Positions 16,582 to 42,560 of a stretch of DNA of 64,000 nucleotides are shown piece by piece; positions within the stretch are counted from its first letter, which is position 1; every line of letters begins with the position of its first letter. The notes below the pieces were generated by a model. That model made no database searches. It saw only the letters and a program-made list of their open reading frames with translations, and was not told the origin of the DNA. Source of the DNA: an uncultured Candidatus Saccharibacteria bacterium (GTDB taxonomy: Bacteria; Patescibacteriota; Minisyncoccia; Phycocordibacterales; UBA2135); NCBI GenBank assembly GCA_964348495.1, contig CAYGCZ010000001.1, positions 7,951-71,950 on the forward strand, in the 5' to 3' direction. A program made the position numbers and the translations under genes.

Positions 16582-16674
16582 TAATCGATTGTGGGTGAGT
16601 AACTGACTTTTGATATAGGATATGCTATACTCGCCAAAGGTTTTTAAATAGCGACTTGAAGAGGAGAAAAAAGC

Positions 16675-16899
16675 ATGGCTTTTTCTTTTACGTCTAAAGA
16701 GTTGGCGGAAATGCCCTTTCCGCAGGAAAACAAAAAATGTCCCTGTGGTTGCGGGAAGCAACTCATGGGCGACAAAGAAGATCGTCAAGTAATGATGGTC
16801 GACGGAGTTCCACAGGAGGTGAACGCCGATTGCTACTATAAAGGATTAAGCGACCTGATCGACAAGAACCCTGTCGGTCTCCCGACAAAAAGCGAGTAA
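16675..16899 (+). CDS. small Cys-containing hypothetical protein (CPCGCGK motif)
   Basis: 74-aa ORF with an upstream gaggag RBS. No recognisable family. Confidence 0.35.
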   Translation: MAFSFTSKELAEMPFPQENKKCPCGCGKQLMGDKEDRQVMMVDGVPQEVNADCYYKGLSDLIDKNPVGLPTKSE

Positions 16900-17051
16900 C
16901 GCATCTTCCGCCCCCCGCGCCGGCGTTGGTTTCACTACCAACCCGGCGTTTTTGTTTATTTCCAACCACTCAATCACCCACCCATCCATCCATCCACCAA
17001 CATACTTACATACGCACTCACCTACTCACATATTCACATCCGTCACTCCGG

Positions 17052-17085
17052 AACCTAAAATGATGCACGTGCATCATTTTAGGTT
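17052..17085. repeat. perfect 34-bp palindrome aacctaaaatgatgcac|gtgcatcattttaggtt (palindrome family C, copy 1)
   Basis: Exact two-fold symmetry. It is flanked by a CA-rich arm (16962-17040) and a GT-rich arm (17107-17180). Confidence 0.95.
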
Positions 17086-17227
17086 ACCTTGATTTTTGAT
17101 ACGTAGTTGAGCGCGTGTGTATCGAGTGTGCATCGAGTGCGCGTGTGCGTGAGTGAGTATGTGTGGCATGAGAGGGGATTTGATGCTACGATAGACGCAC
17201 GTTTGTTCGGGGGCGAGCGGATGCATC

Positions 17228-17797
17228 ATGAAGATTCGCGATACCGAGATACCCCTTACTCAGATCGTCCTCGCCCTCGCGGCAGTCGGTGGGTTGTTGC
17301 TTATCGTTGCGGTCGTACCCAACGTCTCCCAAATTTTCAAACTCTTCGGCATTGGAAAAAGAAAAAAGAGCTATACTCCCAAGCAGTACAGCCGTGCCGT
17401 CAAATCATTGGAGCGGCAAGGGTATGTTGCCATTCGGCGTACCGGCCGCGACGAGCGGATTCATATTACGCCCGAAGGTCGTATGGCTTTCGAGCTGTAT
17501 AGGGCACGTCATCTCGACACCGCCCGCCCTAAAAAGTGGGATGGCAAATGGCGTGTGATTATTTTTGATATTGATCGAAAGCGGAGTTTTTTACGCAATA
17601 GGCTTCGTAATACGCTACAAGGTGTAGGTTTTGTGTATGTACAACATAGCGTATGGGCGTTTCCCTATCCTTGCGAATGGCTGGTGCAATTGATAAAAGT
17701 TGATTGCGAGGTGGGTACAGAAGTGCTCTTCCTTACCGTTGAAGCACTAGAAGGTGATGAACGACTACGTCAACATTTTCGTTTGCCACATAAATAA
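17228..17797 (+). CDS. PaaX-like protein: N-terminal TM helix, winged-helix domain and C-terminal Cas2-like (PaaX_C-type) domain
   Basis: TM segment IVLALAAVGGLLLIVAVV. wHTH YSRAVKSLERQGYVAIRRTGRDERIHITPEGR. WDGKWRVIIFDIDRKRSFLRNRLRNTLQGVGFVYVQHSVWAFPY resembles the Cas2/PaaX C-terminal core. Confidence 0.55.
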   Translation: MKIRDTEIPLTQIVLALAAVGGLLLIVAVVPNVSQIFKLFGIGKRKKSYTPKQYSRAVKSLERQGYVAIRRTGRDERIHITPEGRMAFELYRARHLDTARPKKWDGKWRVIIFDIDRKRSFLRNRLRNTLQGVGFVYVQHSVWAFPYPCEWLVQLIKVDCEVGTEVLFLTVEALEGDERLRQHFRLPHK

Positions 17798-17841
17798 CAC
17801 AGAACCTAAAATGATGCACGTGCATCATTTTAGGTTCTGTG
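17798..17841. repeat. perfect 44-bp palindrome (family C, copy 2; same core as 17052-17085, extended by cacag/ctgtg)
   Basis: cacagaacctaaaatgatgcac|gtgcatcattttaggttctgtg. It overlaps the stop codon of the PaaX-like gene. Confidence 0.95.
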
Positions 17842-17910
17842 GTTTTTGTTTTTTTGGTGAACGGTGTTTTGTCGGATAGTTTTTTTGATGGGCGGTATTT
17901 TTTTGACATT

Positions 17911-17935
17911 AAAAAACCTCCGGGGTTGCCGGAGG
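17911..17935 (-). terminator. terminator of the minus-strand CDF gene
   Basis: cctccgg/ccggagg stem preceded on the plus strand by aaaaaa, which is a T-tract on the minus strand. Confidence 0.5.
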
Positions 17936-17960
17936 TCGGGAAGGGCTACTGGTTATCCGT

Positions 17961-18551
17961 TCATGCATGGTGGTGATCTGCCTCCTTTCCTTGGATGGTT
18001 GTGTAGGTTATCCAGAGGGTGAGTAGGATCATATATACCGAAATCCAGAATGATAGATATGCATCCCACTGTGCGCCACCGGCGTATACGATGATAGCCG
18101 AGGCGAGTACAGCAAATGAAATGAGGACATCGCACAGAAGGTGCGCGTTTACGATGGTCTTGAGCGATCCGCCGTGCATGGGATGAATTATAAGGAACTG
18201 TCCGGCATTTCCTCCCAAACCGATCAGTGCGCCCACGCTCATGAGCAGAGGGTCGACGGGTATCGATCCTGCGTCAATGCGGTGCATCGCCTCGGCGTTT
18301 ACACGCAGTGCGCCGTAGGCGAGGAGGAGTATGCCGGCAATCACGACGGCGCGCCGCAGGGATGCTTTGTTGAGGATCATTGCCGCGAAGGCACCTCCCG
18401 TAACGAGTATGTCGGTAGACATATGCCACGCGTCGCCGGCGAGGGCATTGCTGGCGGAGCAATGTACGAGGATCCATTGCATACAAAGCGCAAGAGATCC
18501 AATACCAAGTGCGAAACCATATCTTCGCGCATCGTGCGTATGAGTGTGCAT
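17961..18551 (-). CDS. cation diffusion facilitator (CDF) family transporter, membrane domain only
   Basis: HMSTDILVTGGAFAAMIL and HAEAM...D metal-site motifs, 5-6 TM segments and a His-rich end (DHHHA). At 196 aa it lacks the usual cytoplasmic C-terminal domain. Confidence 0.65.
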   Translation of the reverse strand: MHTHTHDARRYGFALGIGSLALCMQWILVHCSASNALAGDAWHMSTDILVTGGAFAAMILNKASLRRAVVIAGILLLAYGALRVNAEAMHRIDAGSIPVDPLLMSVGALIGLGGNAGQFLIIHPMHGGSLKTIVNAHLLCDVLISFAVLASAIIVYAGGAQWDAYLSFWISVYMILLTLWITYTTIQGKEADHHHA

Positions 18552-18570
18552 GACACACCTCCGTTTGGGT

Positions 18571-18693
18571 TTATTAGCGACGTAGAGCGAGTGAAATGAG
18601 AAAACGAAGCGAAGCGGAGTTTTCTCATTTCCGAGCCGAGGAGCTAATATGGGTTCAATACCTCGGGGCTCTGCCCCGAGGGACTATATTGCA
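18571..18693. repeat. Repeat family B copy 1 (~123 bp)
   Basis: About 85% identical to 55824..55947. It has internal IR atgagaaaac...gttttctcat and a perfect hairpin cctcggggc-tct-gccccgagg. Confidence 0.85.
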
Positions 18694-18755
18694 GTGAAAG
18701 AACTATATGCAGACAACCATATTTTTTTCCTATGCGCAAGACATGTTTGGGGTTA

Positions 18756-18922
18756 AGAGCCTGTTCAAGATCTCGCGGTACCCAACGTGAACATACAGGT
18801 TTTTAGGCGAAACATGAGTCGGAGCACGAGTCGTACTAGTAGTACGACGAGTGTGAGACGAAATTTTGTAGCCAAAAACCTCGTGTTTTCAGGTTGGGGG
18901 AAGATCTTGAACAGGCTCTAAG
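18756..18922. repeat. Repeat family A copy 2 (167 bp, perfect 17-bp TIRs)
   Basis: gagcctgttcaagatct ... agatcttgaacaggctc. Same internal structure as 2276..2442. Confidence 0.85.
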
Positions 18923-18929
18923 AACTATA

Positions 18930-18970
18930 TGAAACGCCCCCCGTTTGCGTAGCAAACGGGGGGCGTTTCA
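18930..18970. terminator. bidirectional intrinsic terminator (19-bp perfect stem)
   Basis: tgaaacgccccccgtttgc-gta-gcaaacggggggcgtttca. It lies immediately 3' of the minus-strand DsbA-like gene. Confidence 0.7.
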
Positions 18971-18981
18971 TATCGTGCGCT

Positions 18982-19746
18982 CTATCGCTTCAGCGCTTCT
19001 TCTATAAAGCGCTTCATGGTTTCGTAGGACTGGGCACCGGCGGGGAGGGGAAGGACGGAGCCGTCTTTGAGAATGATGAAGCCGGTCGGGGTGGCACGGA
19101 CGCCGGCGTCGATGCCGCCTTCGAGCTGTTCTGATATGAGATCGGCGTAACGCTCGCTTGTAAGGCAGGTGTTGAATGCGGTGAGGACGGCGCCTTTAAA
19201 GCCGATATTTTGCGCGATCACGGGAAGTTGGTCGAGCTCCAGGCGGTTGTTGGAGGGAGTAATGGCGAAGATGCCATCTATGTACGACCAGAATGCGTCG
19301 CGGCCGCCGACCTCTGCGGCACACTCTGCGGCGCGGGCCTCAACGCGCGCCTTGGGGTGGATGGTATCAAGCGGGAAGTGGCGGTAGACCCACGCCACCT
19401 TGCCGTCATTGCCGTAGGTCTTGTAGACGTTGAGCATCGTCTCGTGGAAGACCTTGCAGAAGGGGCACTCCAAGTCGGAGTATTCAACGACGGTGAGAGC
19501 GGCCTTCGGGTCGCCGCGGAGATGATCATTGGCCGATAGAGGTGGGAGATTTTGCGCCGTCTCTATGGCTCCCTCGTCGGCGGAGGGTTGCGCTGCGCTG
19601 TGCGGGGATTTGGTGATGAGGATGGCACCGGCGATGATGAGGCCGGCGATGATGATCGCCGTGGGCGTTGTGAGGGTAAACCCTGCGCGCTTGTGAGAAG
19701 TTTCGTGTTCCATATGGTTCCATTGTATCTGAAAGAGGGTTTCCAC
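18982..19746 (-). CDS. DsbA-family thiol:disulfide oxidoreductase, membrane-anchored
   Basis: N-terminal TM segment, CPFC active-site motif, thioredoxin-fold context ...VYRHFPLDTIHP... Confidence 0.8.
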   Translation of the reverse strand: METLFQIQWNHMEHETSHKRAGFTLTTPTAIIIAGLIIAGAILITKSPHSAAQPSADEGAIETAQNLPPLSANDHLRGDPKAALTVVEYSDLECPFCKVFHETMLNVYKTYGNDGKVAWVYRHFPLDTIHPKARVEARAAECAAEVGGRDAFWSYIDGIFAITPSNNRLELDQLPVIAQNIGFKGAVLTAFNTCLTSERYADLISEQLEGGIDAGVRATPTGFIILKDGSVLPLPAGAQSYETMKRFIEEALKR

Positions 19747-19843
19747 AAGGACTTGCTTTTAAATAAAATATGTAGTACTGTGCACGTAATGCTCGATAGG
19801 CGGGCAGTGTTCTTAAGATACATAAACACACGAGGAGTTCACT

Positions 19844-20338
19844 ATGGCTATGGTAAAAGGTAGCAGTCGTGCACGGTTGAATATTTTGCTTGCTGCACAG
19901 AAATTATTTTCGGAGAGAGGGTATGAGGGAGCTTCCACGACAGATATTGCCAATGAGGCCGGGGTAACCCAACCCCTTATTCACTATCACTTTCAGAGCA
20001 AGCAAAAGCTTTTTAAGGAAGTGATTCGGGAAGGACTGGTGATAGTGGGGAAGGTGAAGGAAAATTTTTTCCTTCCCGTTGGAAGGATTCACACGGATGT
20101 GTTGACAATAATTCTCAGGGAGTCTGTTTCCAAAGGAGAAATATGGGGATGGATCGAAGAGTTTTTCGATGGCGGAGTGCCAAACATCTTTTTGGAAAAG
20201 ATGTACGGGAGGTTGATACACGGATGGAAAAACCCTTTTTTTCTTCAAAACGAGTATGAAAAGAGGAATGGAAACCCATTTCAGCCCGATGAGGGGGGCT
20301 GGATTCACTTCGATATCTCAACATTCACTTCACTGTAA
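19844..20338 (+). CDS. TetR-family transcriptional regulator
   Basis: N-terminal HTH RLNILLAAQKLFSERGYEGASTTDIANEAGVTQPLIHYHFQSK. Lower-GC gene. Confidence 0.8.
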   Translation: MAMVKGSSRARLNILLAAQKLFSERGYEGASTTDIANEAGVTQPLIHYHFQSKQKLFKEVIREGLVIVGKVKENFFLPVGRIHTDVLTIILRESVSKGEIWGWIEEFFDGGVPNIFLEKMYGRLIHGWKNPFFLQNEYEKRNGNPFQPDEGGWIHFDISTFTSL

Positions 20339-20354
20339 GTGAATGTTGAGATAT
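20313..20354. promoter_or_regulatory. perfect 17-bp inverted repeat (candidate TetR operator or attenuator) spanning the TetR stop codon
   Basis: atatctcaacattcact-tcactgta-agtgaatgttgagatat, located 77 bp upstream of the ATP-cone nuclease start at 20431. Confidence 0.45.
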
Positions 20355-20430
20355 GCTATTCAAACCGCAAGGATGCGGTTTTTTCGTTGTCCTTTCGCGG
20401 GGAGCGAACGGTGCGGTATACTTTTTGTAT

Positions 20431-21270
20431 ATGGTTGATATCACCAAAGCATCGGGCGAGCGTGAGCCGTTTGATCGTACTAAATTGTGCGACTCGTTGC
20501 GTATGGCGCATGCGCCTGAAGACGTGGTGGCACACGTCTGCGCGTTGGTAGAGCAGGATATCCAGCCGGGCGCCACGACCTCGTACCTCTTTCGCAAGGC
20601 GACACGCCACCTGATGAAAGCCAACCCTGCCGTCGCGGCGCGCTATAATCTCAAACGCGGCATCGCGGAGCTTGGTCCGGCAGGTTTCTTTTTTGAGCAG
20701 TTCCTTGAGGTGATGTTGAAGGAGATGGGATACGAGACGGAACGCAACCGCATCATGAAGGGACGGTGCGTTGAGCATGAGGTGGACGTGGTTGCGCACG
20801 GCAAAGATGAACATTATCTGATTGAAGCGAAATATCACAACAGTCCTCATTTGCGTACGCATGTGGATGTTGTCATGTATGCGGATGCGCGTTTGCAAGA
20901 CATCTCCGAAGAGCCGACGCGCAAGCGCGAGGGGGTGCGCCACGGCATGTGGCTTATCACCAACACTAAATTTACGCATACGGCAATACAATATGCGCAG
21001 TGCCGCGGGCTCACGCTTACCGGATGGCGGTATCCGAAGGATAACGGCTTGGAGGATCTGATCGCCAAACATGTACTCTATCCGGTAACGGCCCTGCCCT
21101 CGGTCAATCCCTATGTTCGCCACATCTTTGCAAAATATGATATGATGCTGGTGCGGGATCTCGCCGTCTACTCGGAGGACGATCTGGTAAAAAAGTTTGA
21201 GATTCATCGTCCGGTCGCGCGCGGGATCATACGCGAAGCCCACGCGCTCATTTATGGCGACGCGGTCTGA
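20431..21270 (+). CDS. ATP-cone domain fused to Mrr-type (PD-(D/E)xK) restriction-endonuclease-like domain
   Basis: ATP-cone VDITKASGEREPFDRTKLCDSLRMA.... Nuclease core HEVDVVAHGKDEHYLIEAKYHNS. The probable start is the ATG at 20431, inside the ORF 20353..21270. Confidence 0.7.
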   Translation: MVDITKASGEREPFDRTKLCDSLRMAHAPEDVVAHVCALVEQDIQPGATTSYLFRKATRHLMKANPAVAARYNLKRGIAELGPAGFFFEQFLEVMLKEMGYETERNRIMKGRCVEHEVDVVAHGKDEHYLIEAKYHNSPHLRTHVDVVMYADARLQDISEEPTRKREGVRHGMWLITNTKFTHTAIQYAQCRGLTLTGWRYPKDNGLEDLIAKHVLYPVTALPSVNPYVRHIFAKYDMMLVRDLAVYSEDDLVKKFEIHRPVARGIIREAHALIYGDAV

Positions 21271-21300: not shown

Positions 21301-21915
21301 ATGACCAAACATATTAGTATTTTTATCGGTATCATCGTTCTGGGCCTCGGCATCTTCCTTTTTGCGGCGGGAGGTCGCTCGGCATCAGACGATACGCTTA
21401 CTTCTTCTCCCTCTATGAGTACGACCACGACTCCGGTACAGGTAACCTTGGTGACAAACAAGGGCTCCATCATTCTTGAAATGTTTACCGAACAGATGCC
21501 GAACACGACGGAAAACTTCCTTTCGCTCGCGGCGGCGGGCTTTTACGACGGTACGAAGTTTCATCGGGTCATCGACGGTTTTATGATCCAGGGCGGCGAC
21601 CCGACCTCCAAGGGCGATGATGCCTCGCTCTATGGCCGAGGCGGCCCGGGGTACACGATTCCCGACGAGTTTGCATCGGGGCTTTCAAACATACGAGGAA
21701 CGATCAGCATGGCCAATGCCGGCCCCAATACGGGCGGCAGTCAGTTCTTCATCAGCGTCGCCGACAACACCTTCTTGGATGGCAAGCACCCGGTCTTTGG
21801 CAAGGTGCTTGAGGGAATGGATGTTGTAGACACTATCTCGCATGCCGAGCGCAATCGCAATGATCTGCCTCTCCAGCCGATTGTGATTGAGAAGATGGTG
21901 ATCACGGGGCGGTAG
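21301..21915 (+). CDS. cyclophilin-type peptidyl-prolyl cis-trans isomerase, membrane-anchored or secreted
   Basis: FHRVIDGFMIQGGDPT...GTISMANAGPNTGGSQFFI, with an N-terminal TM or signal segment. Confidence 0.9.
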   Translation: MTKHISIFIGIIVLGLGIFLFAAGGRSASDDTLTSSPSMSTTTTPVQVTLVTNKGSIILEMFTEQMPNTTENFLSLAAAGFYDGTKFHRVIDGFMIQGGDPTSKGDDASLYGRGGPGYTIPDEFASGLSNIRGTISMANAGPNTGGSQFFISVADNTFLDGKHPVFGKVLEGMDVVDTISHAERNRNDLPLQPIVIEKMVITGR

Positions 21916-21967
21916 CTCCACGCAAAAAGGCGCGCACCCAAAGGGTGCGCGCCTTTTTGCGTGGAGG
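21916..21967 (+). terminator. strong intrinsic terminator after the PPIase gene
   Basis: ctccacgcaaaaaggcgcgcaccc-aaa-gggtgcgcgcctttttgcgtggag. Confidence 0.75.
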
Positions 21968-22080: not shown

Positions 22081-22500
22081 ATGCCTGTTTCTCAATCACC
22101 ATCTGTCGAAAAAAAGGAAGTGATCGGACCATTGTCACGCATTTTACTCGTAGAGGACGACATGTTCATCGCCCGCGCCTACGTTAGCGGTCTTGGTCAA
22201 AACGGTTTTGAGATACTCCATGCCGCTTCCGGAGAGCAAGCACTCCTCACGCTCGGAAAAGAAAAGATCGATCTGATCTTGCTCGATATCATCATGCCCG
22301 CCATGAACGGTTTTGAGGTATTGAAGGCCATCAAAGAGAACAGGGCGACCAAAAACATCCCCGTCATCGTCCTCTCCAATCTCGGACAAGAGTCCGATAT
22401 CCAAAAAAGTCGCGAACTTGGCGCGATCGACCACCTCGTAAAAGTCGATTATTCAATCGCCGATATTGCACAGAAGTTGCGCTCCCACCTTCATGCATGA
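22081..22500 (+). CDS. stand-alone response-regulator receiver domain (CheY-like)
   Basis: LLVEDD...DLILLDIIMP...VIVLSN...K. Its stop overlaps the pilB start (ATGA). Confidence 0.85.
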   Translation: MPVSQSPSVEKKEVIGPLSRILLVEDDMFIARAYVSGLGQNGFEILHAASGEQALLTLGKEKIDLILLDIIMPAMNGFEVLKAIKENRATKNIPVIVLSNLGQESDIQKSRELGAIDHLVKVDYSIADIAQKLRSHLHA

Positions 22501-24278
22501 CCAACGTCGTTACCATTGAACAACTGCGTGCCGCGTTGGTTCCTCCGGGGCATGTGAGCGAGGAAGATTTTGCGCGTGTCGTTATGAAGGCGCAGAAGCG
22601 CAATGTGCCGGTGGAGTATGTCCTTGTGGAGGATGATCTGGTGAGCGACGAAAACCTCGGCCGACTGATAGCCGAGACGATCGGCATACGTTTTGCCAAT
22701 CTGACCTACGAGAAGGTGGATCGCTCGGTCTTTTTTGCGATGCCGGAGATGGTGGCACGCGTGGCGCATGCCGCCGCAATCAATATGACTCCGGGAGGGG
22801 TGCGCGTCGCCATGCTCTATCCGACCGACATCGAGACGCTTCATCTTTTTGAAAAGCGCTATGGGACGTCGGTTATACCTCATTATGCTACGGCGCGCGC
22901 GCTTGAACGCACCTTTTCACTCTACAGCGGCGACTTGCAAAAGACCTTTGACGAGCTCTTGGCGCGCTTGCGCGATATCAATCTTACGCGCATAGAACGC
23001 GATCGTATGACCGTTGAGATGGTGGACGTGCTCTTGCATTATGGCTACCAAAACAACGCCTCCGACATCCACATCGAGCCCTTCACCAACGATTTACGGG
23101 TGCGTTTCCGCATTGACGGCATCATGCACGACGTACTCACCATTCCCAAAAACAGTCACGAGCTCATCCTGACACGCCTCAAGATACTCGCCAAGATGCG
23201 TACCGACGAGCACCGAGCCGCACAGGACGGCAAATTTCGTTTCTTCGTGCGCGACAGCACTGCCTTTGAAGGGCGCAATCTTATCGCAAGCGGCCATGTC
23301 GCGGCACGCGCAAAAACAGCCCTGCGCAAGAGTTCGGCGGATATCGTCGACGTGCGTGTCTCTATCGTCCCTATCACGGAGGGGGAAAACGTTGTGATGC
23401 GTCTTCTCTCCGCCAAAGGCCGCGAATACGGCCTCTCGACCATCGGCCTTTCACCCCAAGACAGCGCACGCATCCAGCGCGCCATCAAAAAGCCGCATGG
23501 TATGATCCTCGCCGTCGGTCCGACCGGATCGGGAAAGACGACGAGTATGTACGCCGTCTTGAAGCTTCTCAACACGCGAGAGGTACACATCGCCTCGATT
23601 GAGGATCCGGTCGAGTACGCGGTTGAGGGTGTGAGCCAGATCCAAGTAAACCCGCAGACAAATCTCACCTTCGCAAAAGGTCTCCGCGCGATTGTGCGTC
23701 AGGACCCGGATATCATCTTTGTCGGTGAAATTCGCGATGAAGAAACGGCGGGCATCGCAGTGAACTCAGCCATGACGGGACACCTTGTCCTCTCAACCCT
23801 CCACACCAACGATGCGGCGACGACGCTGCCCCGCCTCCTCGACATGGATATCGAGCCCTTCCTCATCGCCTCGACGATCAACGTCATTGTGGCCCAGCGT
23901 CTTGTCCGCAAGATCTGCGCAGGGTGTCGCGAGTCGGTTGTCTTGAACGACGAAGAGAAGCTCGCGCTCCAGTATGAGCCCGAGATCAAAAAGCTTTTCA
24001 TCAAGCTGGGCCAAAAGAACATCGACACTCTGCTTGTCTACAAGGGCAAGGGATGTAAGGCCTGCAACGATACGGGCTATGTCGGACGTATCGGGATCTT
24101 CGAAATCATGGAGGCCGATGAGGAGATCAAACGCCTCATCATCACCCGCGCATCAAGCGGTGAGATTGAAGAGACGGCCAAGAAGGCCGGTATGAGCACG
24201 ATGATGGAAGACGGATTACGCAAGGTCTTTGAGGGCATCACAACTTTGGAGGAGATCTTGCGCGTTACGAAGGCATAA
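22497..24278 (+). CDS. pilB: type IV pilus assembly ATPase PilB/GspE family
   Basis: Walker A GPTGSGKTT, Asp and His boxes, and the tetracysteine C-terminus CAGC...CKAC. Confidence 0.92.
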   Translation: MTNVVTIEQLRAALVPPGHVSEEDFARVVMKAQKRNVPVEYVLVEDDLVSDENLGRLIAETIGIRFANLTYEKVDRSVFFAMPEMVARVAHAAAINMTPGGVRVAMLYPTDIETLHLFEKRYGTSVIPHYATARALERTFSLYSGDLQKTFDELLARLRDINLTRIERDRMTVEMVDVLLHYGYQNNASDIHIEPFTNDLRVRFRIDGIMHDVLTIPKNSHELILTRLKILAKMRTDEHRAAQDGKFRFFVRDSTAFEGRNLIASGHVAARAKTALRKSSADIVDVRVSIVPITEGENVVMRLLSAKGREYGLSTIGLSPQDSARIQRAIKKPHGMILAVGPTGSGKTTSMYAVLKLLNTREVHIASIEDPVEYAVEGVSQIQVNPQTNLTFAKGLRAIVRQDPDIIFVGEIRDEETAGIAVNSAMTGHLVLSTLHTNDAATTLPRLLDMDIEPFLIASTINVIVAQRLVRKICAGCRESVVLNDEEKLALQYEPEIKKLFIKLGQKNIDTLLVYKGKGCKACNDTGYVGRIGIFEIMEADEEIKRLIITRASSGEIEETAKKAGMSTMMEDGLRKVFEGITTLEEILRVTKA

Positions 24279-24311
24279 TTACTTTTCGCCGCGAGAGCGG
24301 CATAGCATCAT

Positions 24312-25433
24312 ATGGCACTCGACAGTTCAAGCATGAGACAAGAGCGAGCTACGGCTCCGCAAGGCGGCCTGCTCCTTGCGCGCGTCTTGTATGGCAAGGT
24401 TACCCTCACCCAAAAGGCGCTTTTCGCCAAACATATGGCGGTCATGTTGCGTTCGGGTCTCACTATCACTGAGGCGTTACACACCGCGATCGACACCTCA
24501 AGCGGGCGTTTGAAGCAGATCATGAAAGAGGTCGAGCAATCGGTACAAGCGGGCAAGCCGCTCTCAACCGCACTTGCCGGTTATCAGGACGTCTTCTCAG
24601 ACCTCTTCGTCAATGTCGTCTATGTCGGCGAGGCCTCCGGAACTCTCGTGGAGAATCTTGAGAATCTCGCCGTCCAGATCGAGAAAGAGCGTGATCTGCG
24701 CGCAAAATTGCTTGGTGCCATGATCTACCCGATCATTGTCTTTTCGGCGACTTTCATTTTGAGCTTGGTGCTCGCCTTCGTCGTCCTGCCAAAATTGATT
24801 CCGCTCTTTCAGGGGCTGAAAGTTCAGTTGCCTCTCTCCACGCGTATTTTAATCGCGATGGCGGGCTTCATAGAGAATCATGTTTTTCTGATCGTCGGTT
24901 CGGTCTTTGGTACCCTTGCCGGTCTCACCTTTTTGGTCCGTCAACGCTTTGTGCGCCCGATTACGCACTATGTTTTGCTCAAGATACCGCTTATCGGCCC
25001 GGTGGTGCACGATGTCAATCTGGTGCTCTTTGCTCGCACCTTGCGCATGCTTCTTACAAGCGGTCTCAACATTGATGAGACGATTGAGATCGCCCACAAC
25101 GCCGTCAGCAACCACTATTATCAGCAGGCATTGCGCGATGTGAGCCGCGCTATCCGTACCGGTACCAAACTCTCCCAGAATCTTGCCCGTTACAACGACC
25201 TCTTTCCGCCGCTCGTCTCGCGCATGGTGCGCGTGGGTGAGGAGTCGGGACAGCTTGAGGAGACGCTTTCGTATCTTGAGAGTTTCTATGAAAAGGAGGT
25301 GGATAATTCCACCAAGACACTCTCCATTGCCATCGAGCCCGTCTTGCTCCTTGTCTTGGGCCTCGGCGTCGGCTTCTTGGCACTCTCGATTATCACGCCG
25401 ATCTACAGCATTACGGGTAGTATCGGCAAATAA
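24312..25433 (+). CDS. pilC: type IV pilus / T2SS platform protein PilC/GspF family
   Basis: Two GspF-like repeats with 3 TM segments. Confidence 0.88.
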   Translation: MALDSSSMRQERATAPQGGLLLARVLYGKVTLTQKALFAKHMAVMLRSGLTITEALHTAIDTSSGRLKQIMKEVEQSVQAGKPLSTALAGYQDVFSDLFVNVVYVGEASGTLVENLENLAVQIEKERDLRAKLLGAMIYPIIVFSATFILSLVLAFVVLPKLIPLFQGLKVQLPLSTRILIAMAGFIENHVFLIVGSVFGTLAGLTFLVRQRFVRPITHYVLLKIPLIGPVVHDVNLVLFARTLRMLLTSGLNIDETIEIAHNAVSNHYYQQALRDVSRAIRTGTKLSQNLARYNDLFPPLVSRMVRVGEESGQLEETLSYLESFYEKEVDNSTKTLSIAIEPVLLLVLGLGVGFLALSIITPIYSITGSIGK

Positions 25434-25440
25434 TAGCTCT

Positions 25441-25989
25441 ATGTATCAGATATCATATATCATATATCAGATATCGAAACAGGCGGGCCTGCCCGCCGCG
25501 CCTGCGCTCGGTCGTTCCTTGCGCTCCAGGGCGGGTTTTACCTTCATTGAACTCCTGATCGTGATCGGCGTTTCTCTGATTGTCTACGGCATGTCGCTTT
25601 CAGTATCGGTCCGCACTCAACCATCAATACAGGTAAGCGAATCGGCGGCGCATATCGTTCAGACGATTCGCATCGCCAAGAACGCAAGCCATGCGCGCTT
25701 TCACGGCGCGGCGCACGGGGTTTTCTTCGAAAATAATGCGACGAACAATGATCGCTATATCGCCTATCAAGGTGCCACCTACGCAACGCGCGATACGGCC
25801 TACGACAGTATCACCACACTGGATGCAGGGTTGTCGCTCTCAAGTACGTTCCCGTCGAGCGGCGATATTAATTTTTCAAAAGGGCTTGGCGTGCCGAGTG
25901 CCACGGGGACGGTATCGCTTATGCATGCTGTAACAGGTGAGACGAAGACCATAACCGTCAACGGCATTGGCGCGGTCAACAGTGATTAA
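25441..25989 (+). CDS. pseudopilin or minor pilin with prepilin-type N-terminal cleavage/methylation motif
   Basis: SRAG|FTFIELLIVIGVSLIVYG. The start was chosen at ATG 25441, within the longer ORF 25183..25989 that overlaps pilC. Confidence 0.7.
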   Translation: MYQISYIIYQISKQAGLPAAPALGRSLRSRAGFTFIELLIVIGVSLIVYGMSLSVSVRTQPSIQVSESAAHIVQTIRIAKNASHARFHGAAHGVFFENNATNNDRYIAYQGATYATRDTAYDSITTLDAGLSLSSTFPSSGDINFSKGLGVPSATGTVSLMHAVTGETKTITVNGIGAVNSD

Positions 25990-25990
25990 C

Positions 25991-28900
25991 ATGCAGAAGT
26001 ATACGCTTCGAAGAGGTCAGACGTTGCTGGAGGCGATCATCGCGATTGCGCTTTTCGCTTTGTTGGTGAGTGCGATGGTCTCAATCGGTACGGGTGGATT
26101 TGTCGGTATTGATCGCGGCGGTGATCAGACGGAGGCCGAGTCGCTCGCCCAGGAGGGATTGGAGGCGGTACGCGCCATTCGCGACGACGCATGGCGCCGG
26201 CTCGCCTTCTCCACGAGCTCGGTCGCCGTCTCCGCCGGCGGATGGATCTTCAGCGGGGAGGGGACGACGGAAACGGTCGGCGACTTCACCCGCACCATCT
26301 CTCTGCGCGATGTCTGCCGCGACGGGTCAAACAACCTTACCGCCTGCCCGGGATCCTTTGTTGATCTGCATACCAAAGAGATCGTCGTAACGGTAACCTG
26401 GCAGACCAGTACCGGTATTGTGAACAGTATAGAGCGTTCAATGTACCTCTCCAATTGGCAATCGCGCGATTGGACGCAGACCGATTGGTCGGGCGGCTCC
26501 GGCTTCACGACATGGTCTGATGCTACGCCCACCAGGTACAACCTCAACGACGGCGGCATCGACCATGCGACGGCGGGGCAATTCTCTATCGCGTCCGTTC
26601 CGTCGGGAGGGAGTATCGGCCGATGGATCCCCGGTGGCGGTACATCGGTTACCCATACTTCAGCATCACACTTTAATGCAGGGACGTTCGCGAGTACGAC
26701 AGTATCCGGCAGTGGTAATGCGGCTCTTGTTCAGCTTGCCACGCAAGTCCAATGGTCAACGTTTATCCCCACCTCCGAGAGCGGCGATCCGCGCGGATTG
26801 AACGACCTTGAATTCGGCTCCGACCTCGTCGTCTCCGAGTTCGGCTATGCTGTCGGTAAGAATGGAACCATCATGAAGTGGGATGGTGCATCATGGGGAG
26901 CACAGACGAGCGGCACTACTCAGGAGTTGCACGGCGTTTCTATCATGGACAGCGCGGACGTATGGGCTGTGGGCGATAACGGTACGATCATGCATTGGAA
27001 CGGTTTCAGCTGGTCGAGCGTGCAGTCGGCGTCGGTCAAGAGCCTGCTGGATGTCTTCTTGACTTCGGAGACTGATGGATGGATCGTCGGTGCAGGTGGC
27101 GATATTCAGCGGTGGAATGGCGCCATCTGGACAGCATTTATCTCACCGACGAGCCGCAACATGTACAGCTTGGATTTTGTGACCGTCAACGATGGCTGGT
27201 CCGTCGGTGCCAACGGCGAGATTATGCGCTGGAACGGTACGAGCTGGAGCGTTGTCGTCTCTCCCACGACTCAAGCACTCAACGACGTGCACCTCTACGA
27301 TGCTTCCAACGGATGGGCGGTAGGCAACAATGGCGCGATTCTGCGCTGGAATGGCACCATCTGGACATCGCAGACCGCCCCCGACAATACTGAGCTTTTC
27401 GGTGTCTATGCCGTCTCTGCGACGGAGGCGTGGGCGACGGGCAATAGCGGTACGCTCATTCACACCACTAATAGTGGCGCTACCTGGTCGCTCGTATCGG
27501 TCGCTACGAGCGACCCTCTGCGCGATATTTATATGATCAGTGCCTCCAATGGCCAGTTCGTCGGCGGTTCTCCGACCGTCCCCACCATTTTCCAATACGA
27601 CGGGGTGAATTGGACCGATATTTCAGGCGTCCTCAACAACGACGCCATTTACGACATATCAATGATCAGTTCAAGTGATGGTTGGGCTTCCGGCAACGCA
27701 GGACTCATTCTTCATTGGAATGGCAACGACTGGCTCTCGGTAACATCACCGACCAACAGCGACCTCCAGACTATCGACATGGTCGATGCTTCCAACGGTT
27801 TTGCCGCCGGACAAAATGGCAAGATTGTTCATTACAACGGCTCATCGTGGTCGTTGCAGACCTCGGGGGTGAGCGCAACCCTCTTGGGTTCATCTGCAGT
27901 AAGCGCCTCGACGGCATGGATCGTCGGCAACTCGGGCACGATCCTCAAGACGATAAATAGCGGCTCGACATGGTCTGCTCAGACGAGCCCTGTCGGTTCA
28001 AGTTTGCGGAGCGTCTATGCGGTGGATACCTCCAACGCATGGGCAGTCGGTGCGGCCGGCGTTATCTTGAGTACGAGCAATGGCGGTACGACATGGACAC
28101 AACGGACGAGCGGGACAACAAACACTCTCAACGGTGTGCATTTCGTGGACACATCCAACGGATGGGCGGTAGGTAATAACGGTACAATACGCAAGACCAA
28201 TAATGCCGGCGTTACTTGGACGACCGTAACGAGCGGCACGACCAACGACCTGCTTGCGGTGTACTTTACGAGCATCTCCGACGGTTGGGCAGTCGGTGTC
28301 AACAGCGTTCTTTTGCACTGGAACGGCGTCTCGTGGACGACGGTAACGTCGCCCGTTTCCGAAGATATGCATACGGTCGCGATGGTCAACGGCTCCGATG
28401 TCTGGGCCGCGGGTCAATCATCGGTCTTCATTCACTATGGCTTGTCATATTATCTTTCGGGTACCTTCACCTCCTCCGTTATAGACAGCGGGGATGTCTC
28501 GGCGAGCTGGGACTTCATCAAGTGGACGGAGAATATCAACGCCGGATGGACGGATATCACCGTGGATACGCGGACGGGTAATACCTCCACACCGGATGCT
28601 ACTTGGTCCGCCTTCGTCGGCGGGTATACCGATCCGCTTGGCGATCCGATCATCTCACCCGACAGCCGCTACATCCAATATCGTGTCAGTTTTACTACCA
28701 TTGATAGTCAACAGACATCAACCTTGAGCGACCTCACTATCGACTATAACAACCCCACAACACAAGATCTCTACGGCGTGGAGATGCTCTCGGCATCGTC
28801 GGGCTTCGCGAGTGGCGGCGCACGGACGGTCTTTGAATACGACGGCGTCGCGTGGAGCGAGCAAACGAGCGGCGCGGCGGTCATCATGCGCGATGTTGAT

Positions 28901-29929
28901 TTTGTTACCAGTTCTACGGGATGGGCCGTAGGTGACGGGGGTGTTATTATAAAAACGACCAACGGCGGTTCAAGCTTCAGCACGCAGACGAGCGGTACGG
29001 CGCTCAATTTGAACGGCGTCGCGTTTGTCGACGCAAACAACGGCTGGGCTGTCGGCAATACAGGGGCGATCCGCGCGACAGTAAACGGCGGCAGTACGTG
29101 GTCGGGGCAGACGAGTGGCACGACAGCGAACTTGCAAGACGTTTTCTTTGTCAGTACGACTGAGGGCTGGGCCGTTGGCGCGGCGGGTACGATCTTGCAT
29201 ACGGTAAACGGCGGCAGTACGTGGTCTTCCCAGACGAGCGGCACGACCAATGGATTGAACGACCTCTTTTTTACCGGCAGTACGACCGGATGGACCGTCG
29301 GCAACGGTGGCGTAATACGTCAAACGACCAACGGCGGCTCGACGTGGGTAGCACGCACCTCGCAGACGACCAACAATCTCTACGGTCTCGGCTTCTTCGG
29401 TACCAACAACGGCTGGGCGGTCGGCGCGGCGGGGACGATCATGCGCTATGCCGGTATTGACTGGGCACTCTTCACCTCGCCGGTAACGGTAGATCTCCAA
29501 GATGTATCATTCAGTACGGCGACCGATGGCTGGGGTGTCGGTGCAGGGGGTCTTTTCATTCACTTCACCATCAATGAAGTGGCGACACCCTACCTCACCT
29601 CCGGCGTGCTTACCTCATCGGGCTTTGACATGGGCGATACCCAAGCGGCTGTCAATACGCTCGACTGGGATGAGCTTATTCCCTCGTGTTCGCCCGTGTG
29701 CACCGTGCGCTTTCAGCTCTCCACCGCTCCCGACAGCGGGGGAGTACCCGGGACATTTAGCTCGTGGTACGGAGCGGCCGGTATCAATACCTACTTCACC
29801 CATGCGACGAGTGGGGTAGCGGTGCCGACCTCCCTGCCGACAAACCGCTGGGTGCGCTATCGCACACTCCTCGATAGCGACGGCAGTGCGACGCCGACCG
29901 TCTATGAGATGCGGCTTAATTATCAATGA
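25991..29929 (+). CDS. giant pilin-like protein: prepilin-type N-terminus followed by ~20 Ycf48/BNR-like beta-propeller repeats (putative pilus tip adhesin)
   Basis: RRG|QTLLEAIIAIALFALLV. Repeats of the form TxNGGxTWxxQTSGTTxxLxxVxFVDxxNGWAVGxxGTI are numerous. Confidence 0.75.
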   Translation: MQKYTLRRGQTLLEAIIAIALFALLVSAMVSIGTGGFVGIDRGGDQTEAESLAQEGLEAVRAIRDDAWRRLAFSTSSVAVSAGGWIFSGEGTTETVGDFTRTISLRDVCRDGSNNLTACPGSFVDLHTKEIVVTVTWQTSTGIVNSIERSMYLSNWQSRDWTQTDWSGGSGFTTWSDATPTRYNLNDGGIDHATAGQFSIASVPSGGSIGRWIPGGGTSVTHTSASHFNAGTFASTTVSGSGNAALVQLATQVQWSTFIPTSESGDPRGLNDLEFGSDLVVSEFGYAVGKNGTIMKWDGASWGAQTSGTTQELHGVSIMDSADVWAVGDNGTIMHWNGFSWSSVQSASVKSLLDVFLTSETDGWIVGAGGDIQRWNGAIWTAFISPTSRNMYSLDFVTVNDGWSVGANGEIMRWNGTSWSVVVSPTTQALNDVHLYDASNGWAVGNNGAILRWNGTIWTSQTAPDNTELFGVYAVSATEAWATGNSGTLIHTTNSGATWSLVSVATSDPLRDIYMISASNGQFVGGSPTVPTIFQYDGVNWTDISGVLNNDAIYDISMISSSDGWASGNAGLILHWNGNDWLSVTSPTNSDLQTIDMVDASNGFAAGQNGKIVHYNGSSWSLQTSGVSATLLGSSAVSASTAWIVGNSGTILKTINSGSTWSAQTSPVGSSLRSVYAVDTSNAWAVGAAGVILSTSNGGTTWTQRTSGTTNTLNGVHFVDTSNGWAVGNNGTIRKTNNAGVTWTTVTSGTTNDLLAVYFTSISDGWAVGVNSVLLHWNGVSWTTVTSPVSEDMHTVAMVNGSDVWAAGQSSVFIHYGLSYYLSGTFTSSVIDSGDVSASWDFIKWTENINAGWTDITVDTRTGNTSTPDATWSAFVGGYTDPLGDPIISPDSRYIQYRVSFTTIDSQQTSTLSDLTIDYNNPTTQDLYGVEMLSASSGFASGGARTVFEYDGVAWSEQTSGAAVIMRDVDFVTSSTGWAVGDGGVIIKTTNGGSSFSTQTSGTALNLNGVAFVDANNGWAVGNTGAIRATVNGGSTWSGQTSGTTANLQDVFFVSTTEGWAVGAAGTILHTVNGGSTWSSQTSGTTNGLNDLFFTGSTTGWTVGNGGVIRQTTNGGSTWVARTSQTTNNLYGLGFFGTNNGWAVGAAGTIMRYAGIDWALFTSPVTVDLQDVSFSTATDGWGVGAGGLFIHFTINEVATPYLTSGVLTSSGFDMGDTQAAVNTLDWDELIPSCSPVCTVRFQLSTAPDSGGVPGTFSSWYGAAGINTYFTHATSGVAVPTSLPTNRWVRYRTLLDSDGSATPTVYEMRLNYQ

Positions 29930-33369: not shown

Positions 33370-33459
33370 CAGTGTATTCAACATTAAGCCCCTCTGCCAA
33401 AAATCCGCACGAGTGTGCGGATTTTTTGAAGAGCATGCGACGTTTGCTATACTGTCTCT

Positions 33460-34446: not shown

Positions 34447-34465
34447 TTTATATCGCATAGCTCGT

Positions 34466-34497
34466 AACACAAAAGCGCCATAAGGCGCTTTTGTGTT
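34466..34497. terminator. bidirectional terminator
   Basis: aacacaaaagcgcc-ataa-ggcgcttttgtgtt between convergent genes. Confidence 0.7.
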
Positions 34498-41649: not shown

Positions 41650-41683
41650 ACAAAAGCACGCGCCCTATGGGCGCGTGCTTTTG
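41650..41683 (+). terminator. intrinsic terminator
   Basis: acaaaagcacgcgccc-tat-gggcgcgtgcttttgt. Confidence 0.65.
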
Positions 41684-41698
41684 TGCTACCATGGCAGG

Positions 41699-42553: not shown

Positions 42554-42560
42554 TTGGGTT

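What the first reader, a model, noticed from the sequence alone, without database searches (positions are those of the whole stretch)
19844..21270. TetR gene, perfect 17-bp inverted repeat, and an ATP-cone/Mrr-like nuclease fusion
The ORF 20431-21270 joins an ATP-cone (the allosteric nucleotide-binding module of NrdR and RNR) to a PD-(D/E)xK Mrr-type nuclease core (VDVVAHG...EAKYH). The fusion suggests a nuclease whose activity is gated by ATP/dATP levels. That is plausible for a phage-defence or nucleotide-stress effector. It is preceded by a low-GC TetR gene whose stop codon lies inside a perfect 17-bp-arm palindrome (20313-20354), a plausible operator.
Basis: partly seen in the sequence, partly recalled or inferred. 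Interest (0 to 1): 0.55.

Follow-up and report, generated by a model that had tools for sequence, protein, structure and literature searches.

The report
ATP-cone nuclease beside an orphan TetR
The gene is an intact member of a large, catalogued but never-tested family that joins an ATP/dATP-sensing module to a DNA/RNA-cutting enzyme; its relatives sit among housekeeping and nucleotide-recycling genes rather than phage-defence genes, and the neighbouring TetR gene and palindrome are a one-off insertion in this genome.

Summary
ORF 20431-21270 encodes a three-domain protein: an ATP-cone, an AF1548/Mrr-type PD-(D/E)xK nuclease with invariant E89, D119, E132 and K134, and a helix-hairpin-helix tail. 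It follows a low-GC TetR-like ORF whose stop codon lies in a perfect palindrome (18-nt arms, not 17).

The fusion is real, but it is not new to databases. There are about 555 clusters at 50% identity with E <= 1e-30, RefSeq names it "ATP cone domain-containing protein", and the nuclease core is solved as PDB 1Y88.

No defence context was found. Phage records gave 0 of 50,697 hits and plasmids 2 of 72,556. Neighbours in 75 related loci are housekeeping genes, and the gene diverges in step with the adjacent mnmA.

In the non-Patescibacteria branch it heads a recurrent cluster: nuclease, then a beta-CASP RNase, then an archaeal-type thymidine/AMP phosphorylase, then a PRPP synthetase. This points to nucleotide-pool-gated nucleic-acid turnover.

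The TetR-like gene and its palindrome are absent from every relative. The TetR-like protein has no close homologue and a degraded C-terminal domain. A terminator-like hairpin separates the palindrome from the nuclease start, so a regulatory link is unsupported.

The parts
18982..19746 (-). DsbA-like thioredoxin gene. It is the native divergent neighbour of the nuclease gene in the relative L002.
   Evidence: Pfam Thioredoxin_4 E 1.5e-24. In L002 the same gene directly abuts the nuclease gene with no TetR gene between them.
19747..20400 (.). Low-GC, lineage-specific insertion cassette comprising the tetR upstream region, the tetR-like ORF, the palindrome and a terminator-like hairpin.
   Evidence: GC 43.4%, lowest 3% of 654-nt windows. 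Absent from L002, L003, L086, L087 and all other related loci. No DNA match in plasmids.
19844..20338 (+). TetR-like ORF of 164 aa, with a good N-terminal HTH and a shortened, orphan C-terminal part.
   Evidence: TetR_N 63 bits. The best homologues match only the first ~55 residues at 50-57% identity and are 200-250 aa long. Alignment A6 shows three internal gaps and loss of the last helix. Model pLDDT is 96-98 for the HTH and mostly below 55 after residue 110.
20313..20354 (.). Perfect AT-rich palindrome (18-nt arms, 6-nt loop) overlapping the tetR stop codon.
   Evidence: No match in metagenome contigs for the 13+6+13 core.
20362..20387 (+). Intrinsic-terminator-like hairpin (8-bp stem, 4-nt loop) followed by a T run, lying between the palindrome and the nuclease gene.
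   Evidence: Terminator scan and RNA fold.
20399..20430 (+). Native proximal upstream region of the nuclease gene, with a TATACT box (20417-20422) 8 nt before the ATG.
   Evidence: The same TATACT box lies 8-10 nt before the ATG in L002 and L087, which lack the TetR cassette. Promoter function is inferred, not shown.
20431..20676 (+). ATP-cone domain (residues 1-82) of the nuclease protein.
20671..21045 (+). Invariant linker LGPxGFxFE plus the PD-(D/E)xK nuclease core (residues 81-205). Catalytic residues are E89, D119, E132 and K134.
21046..21270 (+). C-terminal AF1548-like helix-hairpin-helix domain (residues 206-279) and the stop codon.
21301..21915 (+). Cyclophilin-type PPIase gene, 30 nt downstream on the same strand. 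This pairing is conserved in the closest relatives.
   Evidence: Pro_isomerase E 6e-52. It is adjacent to the nuclease gene in L002/L003, L007, L010 and L087.
21916..21966 (.). Perfect 24-nt-arm GC-core palindrome immediately after the cyclophilin stop. It is the likely terminator of the nuclease-cyclophilin unit.

Best explanation
ORF 20431-21270 encodes an intact member of a large family with a fixed architecture: an ATP-cone, an AF1548/Mrr-type PD-(D/E)xK nuclease, and a helix-hairpin-helix domain.

Most likely mechanism. The HhH domain holds nucleic acid without sequence specificity. The E89/D119/E132/K134 site cleaves it with a divalent metal. Adenine-nucleotide binding (ATP versus dATP or low-energy forms) to the cone switches activity, probably by changing the oligomeric state, as the cone does in ribonucleotide reductases and NrdR.

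Most likely role. The enzyme serves cellular nucleic-acid turnover, nucleotide recycling or DNA maintenance tied to the nucleotide pool. It does not look like a phage-defence-island effector. In this Patescibacteria (Paceibacteria-type) genome it is a chromosomal, vertically inherited gene paired with a cyclophilin gene.

The TetR-like gene, the 42-bp palindrome and the hairpin terminator upstream form a compositionally foreign, lineage-specific insertion between dsbA and the nuclease gene. The palindrome plus terminator is most simply the structured 3' end of that inserted transcription unit.

Shown: the domain folds, conserved residues, gene contexts, distribution and the insertion.
Inferred: nucleotide binding, gating, substrate and physiological role.

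For: Residues. D119, E132 and K134 are invariant. E89, H116, E117, K6, G9 and K18 are conserved in at least 90% of 58 homologues at 29-47% identity. Counterparts of the NrdR adenine-pocket residues are present (with bioRxiv 10.1101/2025.03.28.645925).

Family size and uniformity. There are 555 / 971 / 1447 clusters at E <= 1e-30 / 1e-10 / 1e-3, and nearly all of the best 150 are 265-295 aa and match end to end. At least 559 species genomes carry it, mostly Patescibacteria but also Bacteroidota, Nitrospirota, Nitrospinota, Babeliales and archaea.

Not defence. Neighbour census: MnmA 17, PDDEXK_1 5, HAD 5, FKBP 4, DsbA 4, RsmI 4, cyclophilin 3, and no methyltransferase or defence system. Phage hits 0, plasmid hits 2. 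mnmA lies directly upstream in 20 of 80 loci. Mean pairwise identity is 47.6% for the nuclease against 49.8% for MnmA, with r = 0.67.

Nucleotide-metabolism link. In the non-Patescibacteria branch the order is nuclease, then beta-CASP/RMMBL RNase, then archaeal-type thymidine/AMP phosphorylase (TIGR02645, 589 bits against a 434.6 cut-off), then ribose-phosphate diphosphokinase. The RNase is present in 33 of 57 loci with enough downstream sequence, the phosphorylase in 16 of 41 and the kinase in 15 of 41. The cluster occurs in Pontibacter and Criblamydia, which belong to different phyla. In Patescibacteria loci, LOG-type nucleotide nucleosidase candidates lie at -1 in 3 loci and a PurF-like amidotransferase lies divergently upstream in 4 lineages.

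Insertion.
Against: No biochemical data exist for any member. No paper in the searched library describes the family.

The basic residue that follows the conserved Lys in canonical cones (KR in NrdR and NrdA) is variable here. The cone is short (about 80 residues), so nucleotide binding could be altered or limited to one site.

The window's own locus carries none of the beta-CASP, phosphorylase or PRPP-synthetase partners. The metabolic link is therefore transferred from a branch only 34-40% identical.

Mrr-type catalytic domains, and the nearest structural nuclease neighbours (AspBHI, MspJI, Can2, NucC), are mostly restriction or defence enzymes. Solitary type IV enzymes need no partner gene. 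Distribution outside the Patescibacteria is patchy, which fits horizontal transfer.

Neighbour calls rest on a simple ORF caller. Only the 25 commonest families per census were visible.
Confidence: 0.6

Rival explanations
1. The protein is a solitary restriction or abortive-infection effector, Mrr/type IV-like, whose DNA cleavage is unleashed by infection-induced changes in ATP/dATP pools.
For: It belongs to Mrr_cat. PADLOC gives a domain-level hit to the ZorD Mrr-like nuclease, E 1.5e-4. The closest nuclease folds after 1Y88 are the modification-dependent enzymes AspBHI and MspJI and the ligand-gated defence nucleases Can2, Card1 and NucC. Occurrence across distant phyla is patchy.
Against: No defence neighbourhood was found in 75 + 16 + 80 loci. 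Phage records gave 0 hits and plasmids 2, and both plasmid copies sit in metabolic operons. Gene order is conserved with mnmA, mltG, PPIase genes and dsbA, and the divergence rate equals that of MnmA. The architecture and length are uniform, unlike fast-evolving defence genes.
Confidence: 0.15
2. The TetR-like protein binds the 42-bp palindrome as its operator and controls the downstream nuclease-cyclophilin unit.
For: Perfect palindromes are typical TetR-family operators. The palindrome lies 77 nt upstream of the nuclease ATG. The HTH is well preserved. A 12/18 match to one arm lies at 20402-20419 and abuts the TATACT box; 1.6% of shuffles score as well, before correcting for the two regions tested.
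Against: No relative has a TetR gene or this palindrome. The palindrome overlaps the regulator's own stop codon and is followed by a terminator-like hairpin before the nuclease promoter region. No promoter-like site overlaps it. No copy or half-site lies upstream of tetR itself (best 9/18, no better than shuffles). The C-terminal dimerisation and ligand domain is shortened and poorly modelled. This genome has many long perfect hairpins at gene 3' ends.
Confidence: 0.12
3. The enzyme acts on RNA rather than DNA, for example in rRNA or tRNA turnover. It would be the endonucleolytic entry step that feeds a beta-CASP exoribonuclease and nucleotide phosphorolysis when energy charge is low.
For: Its most frequent partner outside the Patescibacteria is a beta-CASP protein with the RMMBL RNA-specificity domain, aCPSF1-like at E 1.8e-80. 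Patescibacteria neighbours are often RNA-related: MnmA 17-20 loci, RsmI 4, Glx-tRNA synthetase 2. Some PD-(D/E)xK relatives found by fold search (Can2, Card1) cut both RNA and DNA, which is prior knowledge rather than a result here.
Against: HhH domains and Mrr/AF1548-type cores are typically DNA-directed. The adjacency to mnmA may be mere conserved gene order. No direct evidence bears on the substrate.
Confidence: 0.13

Closest known systems
AF1548 of Archaeoglobus fulgidus (PDB 1Y88; Pfam Mrr_cat + AF1548-like_C)
   Different: The crystallised AF1548 chain has no ATP-cone and starts after the invariant LGPxGFxFE linker. AF1548 itself has only a structure and a prediction, with no assay.
Mrr-type type IV restriction endonucleases (Pfam PF04471 catalytic domain)
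   Same: The same catalytic-domain family, scoring above the Pfam cut-off, with a D...ExK motif.
   Different: Mrr has an N-terminal winged-helix DNA-recognition domain and acts in restriction of modified DNA. Here the N-terminal module is an ATP-cone, an HhH tail is added, and the contexts are housekeeping or metabolic.
ATP-cone of NrdR and of ribonucleotide reductases
   Different: It is fused to a nuclease rather than to a Zn-ribbon or a reductase. The Arg after the conserved Lys is not conserved. The cone is shorter, so the second ('outer') nucleotide site may be missing.
Ligand-gated PD-(D/E)xK nucleases (Can2/Card1, Cdn1, NucC)
   Different: Those sensors (CARF and others) bind cyclic oligonucleotides made by defence systems and are encoded in CRISPR or CBASS loci. 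Here the sensor is an ATP-cone and no signalling or defence partner is encoded nearby.
TetR-family repressors with palindromic operators (TetR/tetO, QacR/IR1)
   Same: The N-terminal HTH is a clear TetR_N domain and a perfect palindrome lies nearby.
   Different: The protein is 164 aa against 200-250 for its nearest relatives. No TetR_C family matches. The palindrome is at the 3' end of the gene and upstream of a terminator, not in a promoter.
Archaeal/CPR nucleotide-monophosphate degradation route (AMP phosphorylase pathway)
   Same: The family's partner in the non-Patescibacteria branch is an archaeal-type thymidine/AMP-phosphorylase-family enzyme of about 500 aa. It scores 480 bits on TIGR03327 AMP_phos and 589 on TIGR02645.
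   Different: The AMP_phos equivalog cut-off (535 bits) is not reached. No ribose-1,5-bisphosphate isomerase or RuBisCO was seen in the clusters. A PRPP-synthetase-family gene follows instead. None of this is in the window.

Membership tests
PD-(D/E)xK nuclease, Mrr_cat (PF04471) | Profile match above the curated cut-off | tested here: met
   28.8 bits against a cut-off of 21, residues 85-196.
PD-(D/E)xK nuclease, Mrr_cat (PF04471) | Catalytic acidic residues and lysine (E...D...(D/E)xK) present and conserved | tested here: met
   D119, E132 and K134 are invariant, and E89 is conserved in at least 90% of 58 homologues at 29-47% identity. All are present in the window protein.
PD-(D/E)xK nuclease, Mrr_cat (PF04471) | Metal-dependent phosphodiester cleavage | not testable with these tools
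   This needs an enzyme assay.
AF1548-like family (PDB 1Y88) | Sequence and fold homology over the nuclease and C-terminal HhH domains | tested here: met
ATP-cone (PF03477) | Profile match above the curated cut-off | tested here: inconclusive
   The window protein scores 20.0 bits (whole protein) and 23.8 bits (isolated domain) against a cut-off of 25.8. All 22 family N-domains match at E <= 0.01, best 4.7e-9. Orthologue L088 scores 28.3, above the cut-off.
ATP-cone (PF03477) | Fold of a beta-hairpin lid plus a four-helix cone | tested here: met
ATP-cone (PF03477) | Adenine-nucleotide-contacting residues conserved | tested here: inconclusive
   Counterparts of E. coli NrdR V51, K53, E59, P60, F61, K65 and L66 are I4, K6, E12, P13, F14, K18 and L19. 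This comes from the alignment to S. coelicolor NrdR, with a +3 numbering offset, and residues listed in bioRxiv 10.1101/2025.03.28.645925. The Arg after the Lys (KR) is not conserved.
ATP-cone (PF03477) | Binds ATP/dATP and changes activity or oligomeric state | not testable with these tools
   This needs binding and oligomerisation assays.
Anti-phage defence system or island | Match to a known defence protein model over its full length | tested here: not met
   PADLOC gives only a 17.7-bit hit to the C-terminal Mrr-like domain of ZorD.
Anti-phage defence system or island | Homologues lie among defence, restriction-modification or mobile genes | tested here: not met
   Census of 150 + 61 neighbour proteins. 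80 metagenome loci. 0 phage and 2 plasmid records.
Type II restriction-modification system | Adjacent cognate DNA methyltransferase | tested here: not met
   No methyltransferase family is among the 25 commonest families of the +-1 neighbours in 75 loci. There is none next to the gene in the window.
TetR-family regulator | N-terminal TetR_N helix-turn-helix | tested here: met
   63 bits against a cut-off of 24. pLDDT is 96-98.
TetR-family regulator | Full C-terminal ligand-binding and dimerisation helical domain | tested here: inconclusive
   No TetR_C Pfam hit. The protein is 164 aa against 200-250 aa. There are three internal gaps and the last helix is missing relative to the nearest relatives. 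pLDDT is mostly below 55 after residue 110.
TetR operator | Palindrome overlapping the promoter of the regulated gene, or the regulator's own promoter | tested here: not met
   The palindrome overlaps the tetR stop codon. No promoter-like site overlaps it. A terminator-like hairpin follows it. No copy lies upstream of tetR.
TetR operator | Protein binds the site | not testable with these tools
   This needs EMSA or footprinting.

The most novel reading that the evidence does not exclude
The family is a third functional context for the ATP-cone, after ribonucleotide reductases and NrdR. It would be an energy- or dNTP-state-gated endonuclease that opens a nucleic-acid-to-nucleotide recycling route. 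In the non-Patescibacteria branch the route would run nuclease, then beta-CASP RNase, then AMP/thymidine-phosphorylase-like enzyme, then PRPP-synthetase-like enzyme. In Patescibacteria, many of which are reported to lack de novo nucleotide synthesis (prior knowledge, not tested here), the stand-alone, vertically inherited copy would meter digestion of the cell's own or imported nucleic acid against the ATP/dATP pool.
Probability: 0.3. Interest if true: 0.7.

Novelty: new member of a known kind. Interest (0 to 1): 0.42.

Why it matters
If the cone really gates the nuclease, this would be an allosteric logic not yet shown for any nuclease. Cleavage would be tied directly to the cell's ATP/dATP pool, in a protein conserved across many ultra-small Patescibacteria and several other phyla.

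The conserved nuclease, beta-CASP RNase, phosphorylase and PRPP-synthetase cluster found here gives a concrete, testable pathway hypothesis. It also offers cultivable sources of the protein (Pontibacter actiniarum, Criblamydia sequanensis).

For the scan itself, the result is a caution. A restriction-type catalytic domain fused to a sensor domain does not by itself indicate phage defence. The neighbouring TetR gene and palindrome are an incidental insertion.

Tried and rejected
(1) Defence reading. PADLOC on the protein and on 211 neighbour proteins gave only cross-hits. These were MnmA hitting QueC, cysteine desulfurase hitting DndA/SspA, and stand-alone PDDEXK_1 proteins hitting Cas4.

(2) Mobile-element origin. 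No phage hit was found. Two plasmid hits were found, both inside metabolic operons. The TetR cassette had no plasmid DNA match.

(3) Palindrome as a repeated or mobile element, or a conserved operator. It is unique in the window. It is absent from metagenome contigs as an exact 13+6+13 core. No Rfam family matches the region.

(4) Palindrome as an integron attC site. The arms match the R-box consensus only 6/7, a perfect palindrome lacks the extrahelical bases of attC sites, and there is no cassette array. This was assessed by eye only and rejected as unlikely.

(5) A four-cysteine metal site bridging the cone and the nuclease. C20 and C37 are invariant only within the close Paceibacteria set and not in the wider family, where only C113 and C191 remain at 90% or more.

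(6) A small conserved partner ORF directly upstream in non-Patescibacteria loci. The candidate ORFs are unrelated to one another.

(7) Close TetR relatives that might show the ancestral C-terminus or an operator. None exists; only the HTH matches.

(8) Literature. No paper in the library describes an ATP-cone nuclease. The only AF1548 mention is the 2007 prediction in PMC1821046.

(9) A recalled link to the Burkholderia low-oxygen (lxa) locus. Only a 51-kDa metallo-beta-lactamase protein (BCAM0300) could be confirmed there. Homology was not tested, so this stays a lead.

(10) The afdb50 fold library was unavailable.
Full report
**What is in the sequence**

A 164-aa ORF (19844-20338) carries a strong TetR_N helix-turn-helix: 63 bits against a cut-off of 24. 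Its stop codon lies in a perfect inverted repeat with arms 20313-20330 and 20337-20354. The arms are 18 nt, not 17, with a 6-nt loop. The repeat is unique in the window, where 0.02 copies are expected by chance. It folds far better than shuffled sequence, z = -6.9.

Eight bases further on is a classical terminator-like hairpin, 20362-20381, followed by a T run. The next ORF is best started at 20431. That start reproduces the M-[EK]-I-x-K N-terminus of all homologues. The public 305-aa annotation beginning at 20353 is over-extended.

The TetR segment has 44% GC and 49% GC3. The nuclease gene has 55%/65% and the cyclophilin gene 54.5%/67%. The 654-nt cassette ranks in the lowest 3% of same-size windows.

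**The protein has three domains, all supported at the fold level**

Pfam gives Mrr_cat above its cut-off. ATP-cone and AF1548-like_C fall just below theirs for this one sequence.

**Conserved residues**

Across 58 representatives only 29-47% identical to the window protein, several positions are invariant: D119, E132, K134, the linker G82-P83-x-G85-x-x-F88, R154, D157, N178 and W199. E89, H116, E117, C113, C191, K6, G9 and K18 are kept in at least 90%.

The HMMER alignment of the N-domain profile to S. coelicolor NrdR puts I4, K6, E12, P13, F14, K18 and L19 opposite the residues that line the adenine pocket in E. coli NrdR: Val51, Lys53, Glu59, Pro60, Phe61, Lys65 and Leu66 (bioRxiv 10.1101/2025.03.28.645925; numbering offset +3). 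The Arg that follows the Lys in canonical cones is not conserved, and the cone is short. Nucleotide binding is therefore plausible but could be atypical. It is inferred, not shown.

**How common the family is and who has it**

A full HMMER scan of 1.84 billion representatives finds 555 clusters at E <= 1e-30, 971 at <= 1e-10 and 1447 at <= 0.001. Almost all of the best 150 are 265-295 aa and match end to end. The word-indexed search found 2020 relatives, variously named by their sources 'ATP cone domain-containing protein', 'restriction endonuclease' or 'Holliday junction resolvase-like'.

At least 559 species-representative genomes carry it. Most are Patescibacteria (Parcubacteria/Paceibacteria). 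Full-length copies also occur in Bacteroidota, Gracilimonas, Nitrospirae, Nitrospinaceae, Babeliales, Aenigmatarchaeota and Hadarchaeum.

No paper in the searchable library describes the fusion. The only mention of AF1548 is a 2007 prediction that it is a restriction-type nuclease with D38, E51 and K53 (PMC1821046). The architecture is thus catalogued but functionally untested.

**Context does not support defence**

I called ORFs in the 80 genome loci and pooled the immediate neighbours for single Pfam and PADLOC scans.
- The commonest neighbours are MnmA (17 of 150 proteins), PDDEXK_1 nucleases (5), HAD hydrolases (5), FKBP (4), DsbA (4), RsmI (4), cyclophilin (3), VKOR (3) and LOG-family proteins (3). 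No DNA methyltransferase or helicase/ATPase partner appears.
- PADLOC gives only cross-hits: MnmA to QueC, cysteine desulfurase to DndA/SspA, and PDDEXK_1 to Cas4.
- The 16 loci from outside the Patescibacteria show FtsW, DnaB, RuvB, YchF, transporters and similar genes.
- The protein has no match in 50,697 phage records and only two in 72,556 plasmids.
- mnmA lies directly upstream on the same strand in 20 of 80 loci. Among those loci the nuclease is as conserved as MnmA (mean pairwise identity 47.6% against 49.8%), and the two sets of pairwise identities correlate (r = 0.67). This indicates vertical inheritance under housekeeping-level constraint.

**An unexpected positive lead**

Both plasmid hits come from different phyla: Pontibacter actiniarum (Bacteroidota) and Criblamydia sequanensis (Chlamydiota). 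Both show the same tight, co-oriented cluster: ATP-cone protein, MBL-fold hydrolase, thymidine-phosphorylase-family protein, ribose-phosphate pyrophosphokinase.

The partners identify as follows:
- a beta-CASP ribonuclease with the RMMBL RNA-specificity domain, aCPSF1-like at E 1.8e-80;
- an archaeal-type phosphorylase. TIGR02645 scores 589 bits (cut-off 434.6). AMP phosphorylase TIGR03327 scores 480 bits, below its 535 cut-off;
- a PRK07199-type ribose-phosphate diphosphokinase.

In 80 further metagenome loci of this branch, the beta-CASP gene follows the nuclease gene on the same strand in 33 of the 57 loci with at least 1.5 kb downstream. Most lie within 10-370 nt. The phosphorylase is present in 16, and the kinase in 15, of the 41 loci with at least 4 kb downstream, in the same order.

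In Patescibacteria loci there are weaker echoes of the same theme. LOG-type nucleotide nucleosidase candidates lie at -1 in three lineages. A PurF-like amidotransferase lies divergently upstream in L004, L006, L008 and L087.

This is guilt by association. It comes from a branch 34-40% identical to the window protein, and none of these partners is in the window. It does point to nucleic-acid turnover and nucleotide recycling, which is a natural job for a nuclease carrying a nucleotide-pool sensor.

**The window's own locus**

The closest relatives keep the nuclease-cyclophilin pair (L002/L003, L007, L010, L087). The upstream gene varies among dsbA, a sigma factor and the PurF-like gene. In L002 the order is helicase, dsbA (minus strand), nuclease, cyclophilin, with about 100 bp between dsbA and the real nuclease start. 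In the window that gap is about 690 bp and holds the TetR cassette.

The nuclease's proximal upstream sequence, including a TATACT box 8-10 nt before the ATG, is shared with L002 and L087. The insertion therefore sits upstream of what looks like the native promoter region, which may give a leaderless mRNA (inferred). A 24-nt-arm palindrome right after the cyclophilin stop (21916-21966) probably ends the unit.

**The TetR-like gene and the palindrome**

None of the other loci fetched has a TetR homologue beside the nuclease gene. In 5.8 billion protein clusters the only full-length match is the protein itself. Other hits cover the first ~55 residues at 50-57% identity and are 200-250 aa long.

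Aligned to them, the window protein has three internal gaps and lacks the last helix. Its final residues are encoded by the left arm of the palindrome. The model is confident for the HTH (pLDDT 96-98) and poor afterwards. The protein may still bind DNA, but it looks like a shortened, compositionally foreign acquisition.

The palindrome is not in a promoter, no copy lies upstream of tetR, and a terminator-like hairpin follows it. Long perfect hairpins at gene ends are common in this genome. The simplest reading is that the palindrome plus terminator form the structured 3' end of the inserted unit.

One observation keeps the operator idea alive. A 12/18 match to one arm lies at 20402-20419 and abuts the TATACT box; 1.6% of shuffles score as well, with two regions tested. 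I give the operator-for-the-nuclease idea about 0.12.

**Verdict**

The gene is an ordinary, intact member of a catalogued but uncharacterised family. The family itself deserves attention as a possible third functional context for the ATP-cone, and there is now a specific operon-based hypothesis to test.

Noticed in passing
window 17051-17087 and 17803-17839; variant at 41983-42020: An identical ~36-bp AT-rich palindrome (GGAACCTAAAATGATGCAC|GTGCATCATTTTAGGTTCC core) flanks the PaaX-like regulator gene 17228-17797 on both sides. The second copy starts just after the gene's stop codon. A variant with two changes per arm lies inside a TruB-like ORF (41675-42553).
   Followed up: partly
window 42560-42624: A 65-bp perfect palindrome (32-nt arms, 1-nt centre) lies immediately after the TruB-like ORF. 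It is followed by an 18-nt-arm terminator-like palindrome at 42645-42684.
   Followed up: no
window 9390-9426, 18924-18976, 21916-21966, 33392-33433, 34465-34498, 41650-41684, 50417-50451: Many gene ends carry long perfect palindromes with a GC core and A-run/T-run flanks. These look like bidirectional-terminator-like hairpins and appear to be a habit of this genome.
   Followed up: partly
window 16582-18981: About 2.4 kb between the UvrD/PDDEXK helicase gene and dsbA is absent from the syntenic relative L002. It holds a small Cys-rich ORF (16675-16899), a PaaX-like regulator with low GC3 (47%), and a short (196-aa) cation-efflux-family ORF. Together with the TetR cassette, this makes the surroundings of dsbA a variable spot.
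   Followed up: partly
window 20417-20422; L002 7660-7665; L087 1659-1664: A TATACT box is conserved 8-10 nt upstream of the nuclease ATG in three relatives. This suggests a promoter that yields a leaderless or near-leaderless mRNA.
   Followed up: partly
L088 1972-6597; L089 6001-10608; L093, L096, L101, L112, L118, L120, L127, L132, L134, L158-L160, L166 and others: A recurrent four-gene cluster in the non-Patescibacteria branch: ATP-cone nuclease, beta-CASP/RMMBL RNase, archaeal-type thymidine/AMP-phosphorylase-family enzyme and ribose-phosphate diphosphokinase. A D-lactate/2-hydroxyacid dehydrogenase gene often lies 2.7-4.6 kb upstream. In Criblamydia the cluster sits among phosphoketolase, glycogen phosphorylase, acetate kinase and a P-type ATPase.
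   Followed up: partly
L002, L007, L010, L087 (cyclophilin); L026, L031, L034, L041, L052 (FKBP): Two unrelated families of peptidyl-prolyl isomerase lie within two genes of the nuclease gene in different Patescibacteria lineages, often together with DsbA or VKOR. This may be mere conserved gene order.
   Followed up: partly
window protein residues C20, C37, C113, C191 (nt 20488, 20539, 20767, 21001): Four cysteines are invariant among the close Paceibacteria homologues. Only C113 and C191, which are also present in AF1548, stay conserved family-wide. Their spatial relation could not be measured.
   Followed up: partly
window 20402-20419: A GC-richer 12/18 copy of the palindrome's right arm lies next to the TATACT box of the nuclease gene. 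Its significance is marginal (1.6% of shuffles, two regions tested).
   Followed up: partly
window 22081-29929: Directly downstream of the nuclease-cyclophilin pair lies a type IV pilus-like cluster. It comprises a response regulator, a PilB-like ATPase, PilC, pseudopilin-like ORFs and a 1320-aa BNR-repeat protein, with PilM further on (from the gene table of L001).
   Followed up: no
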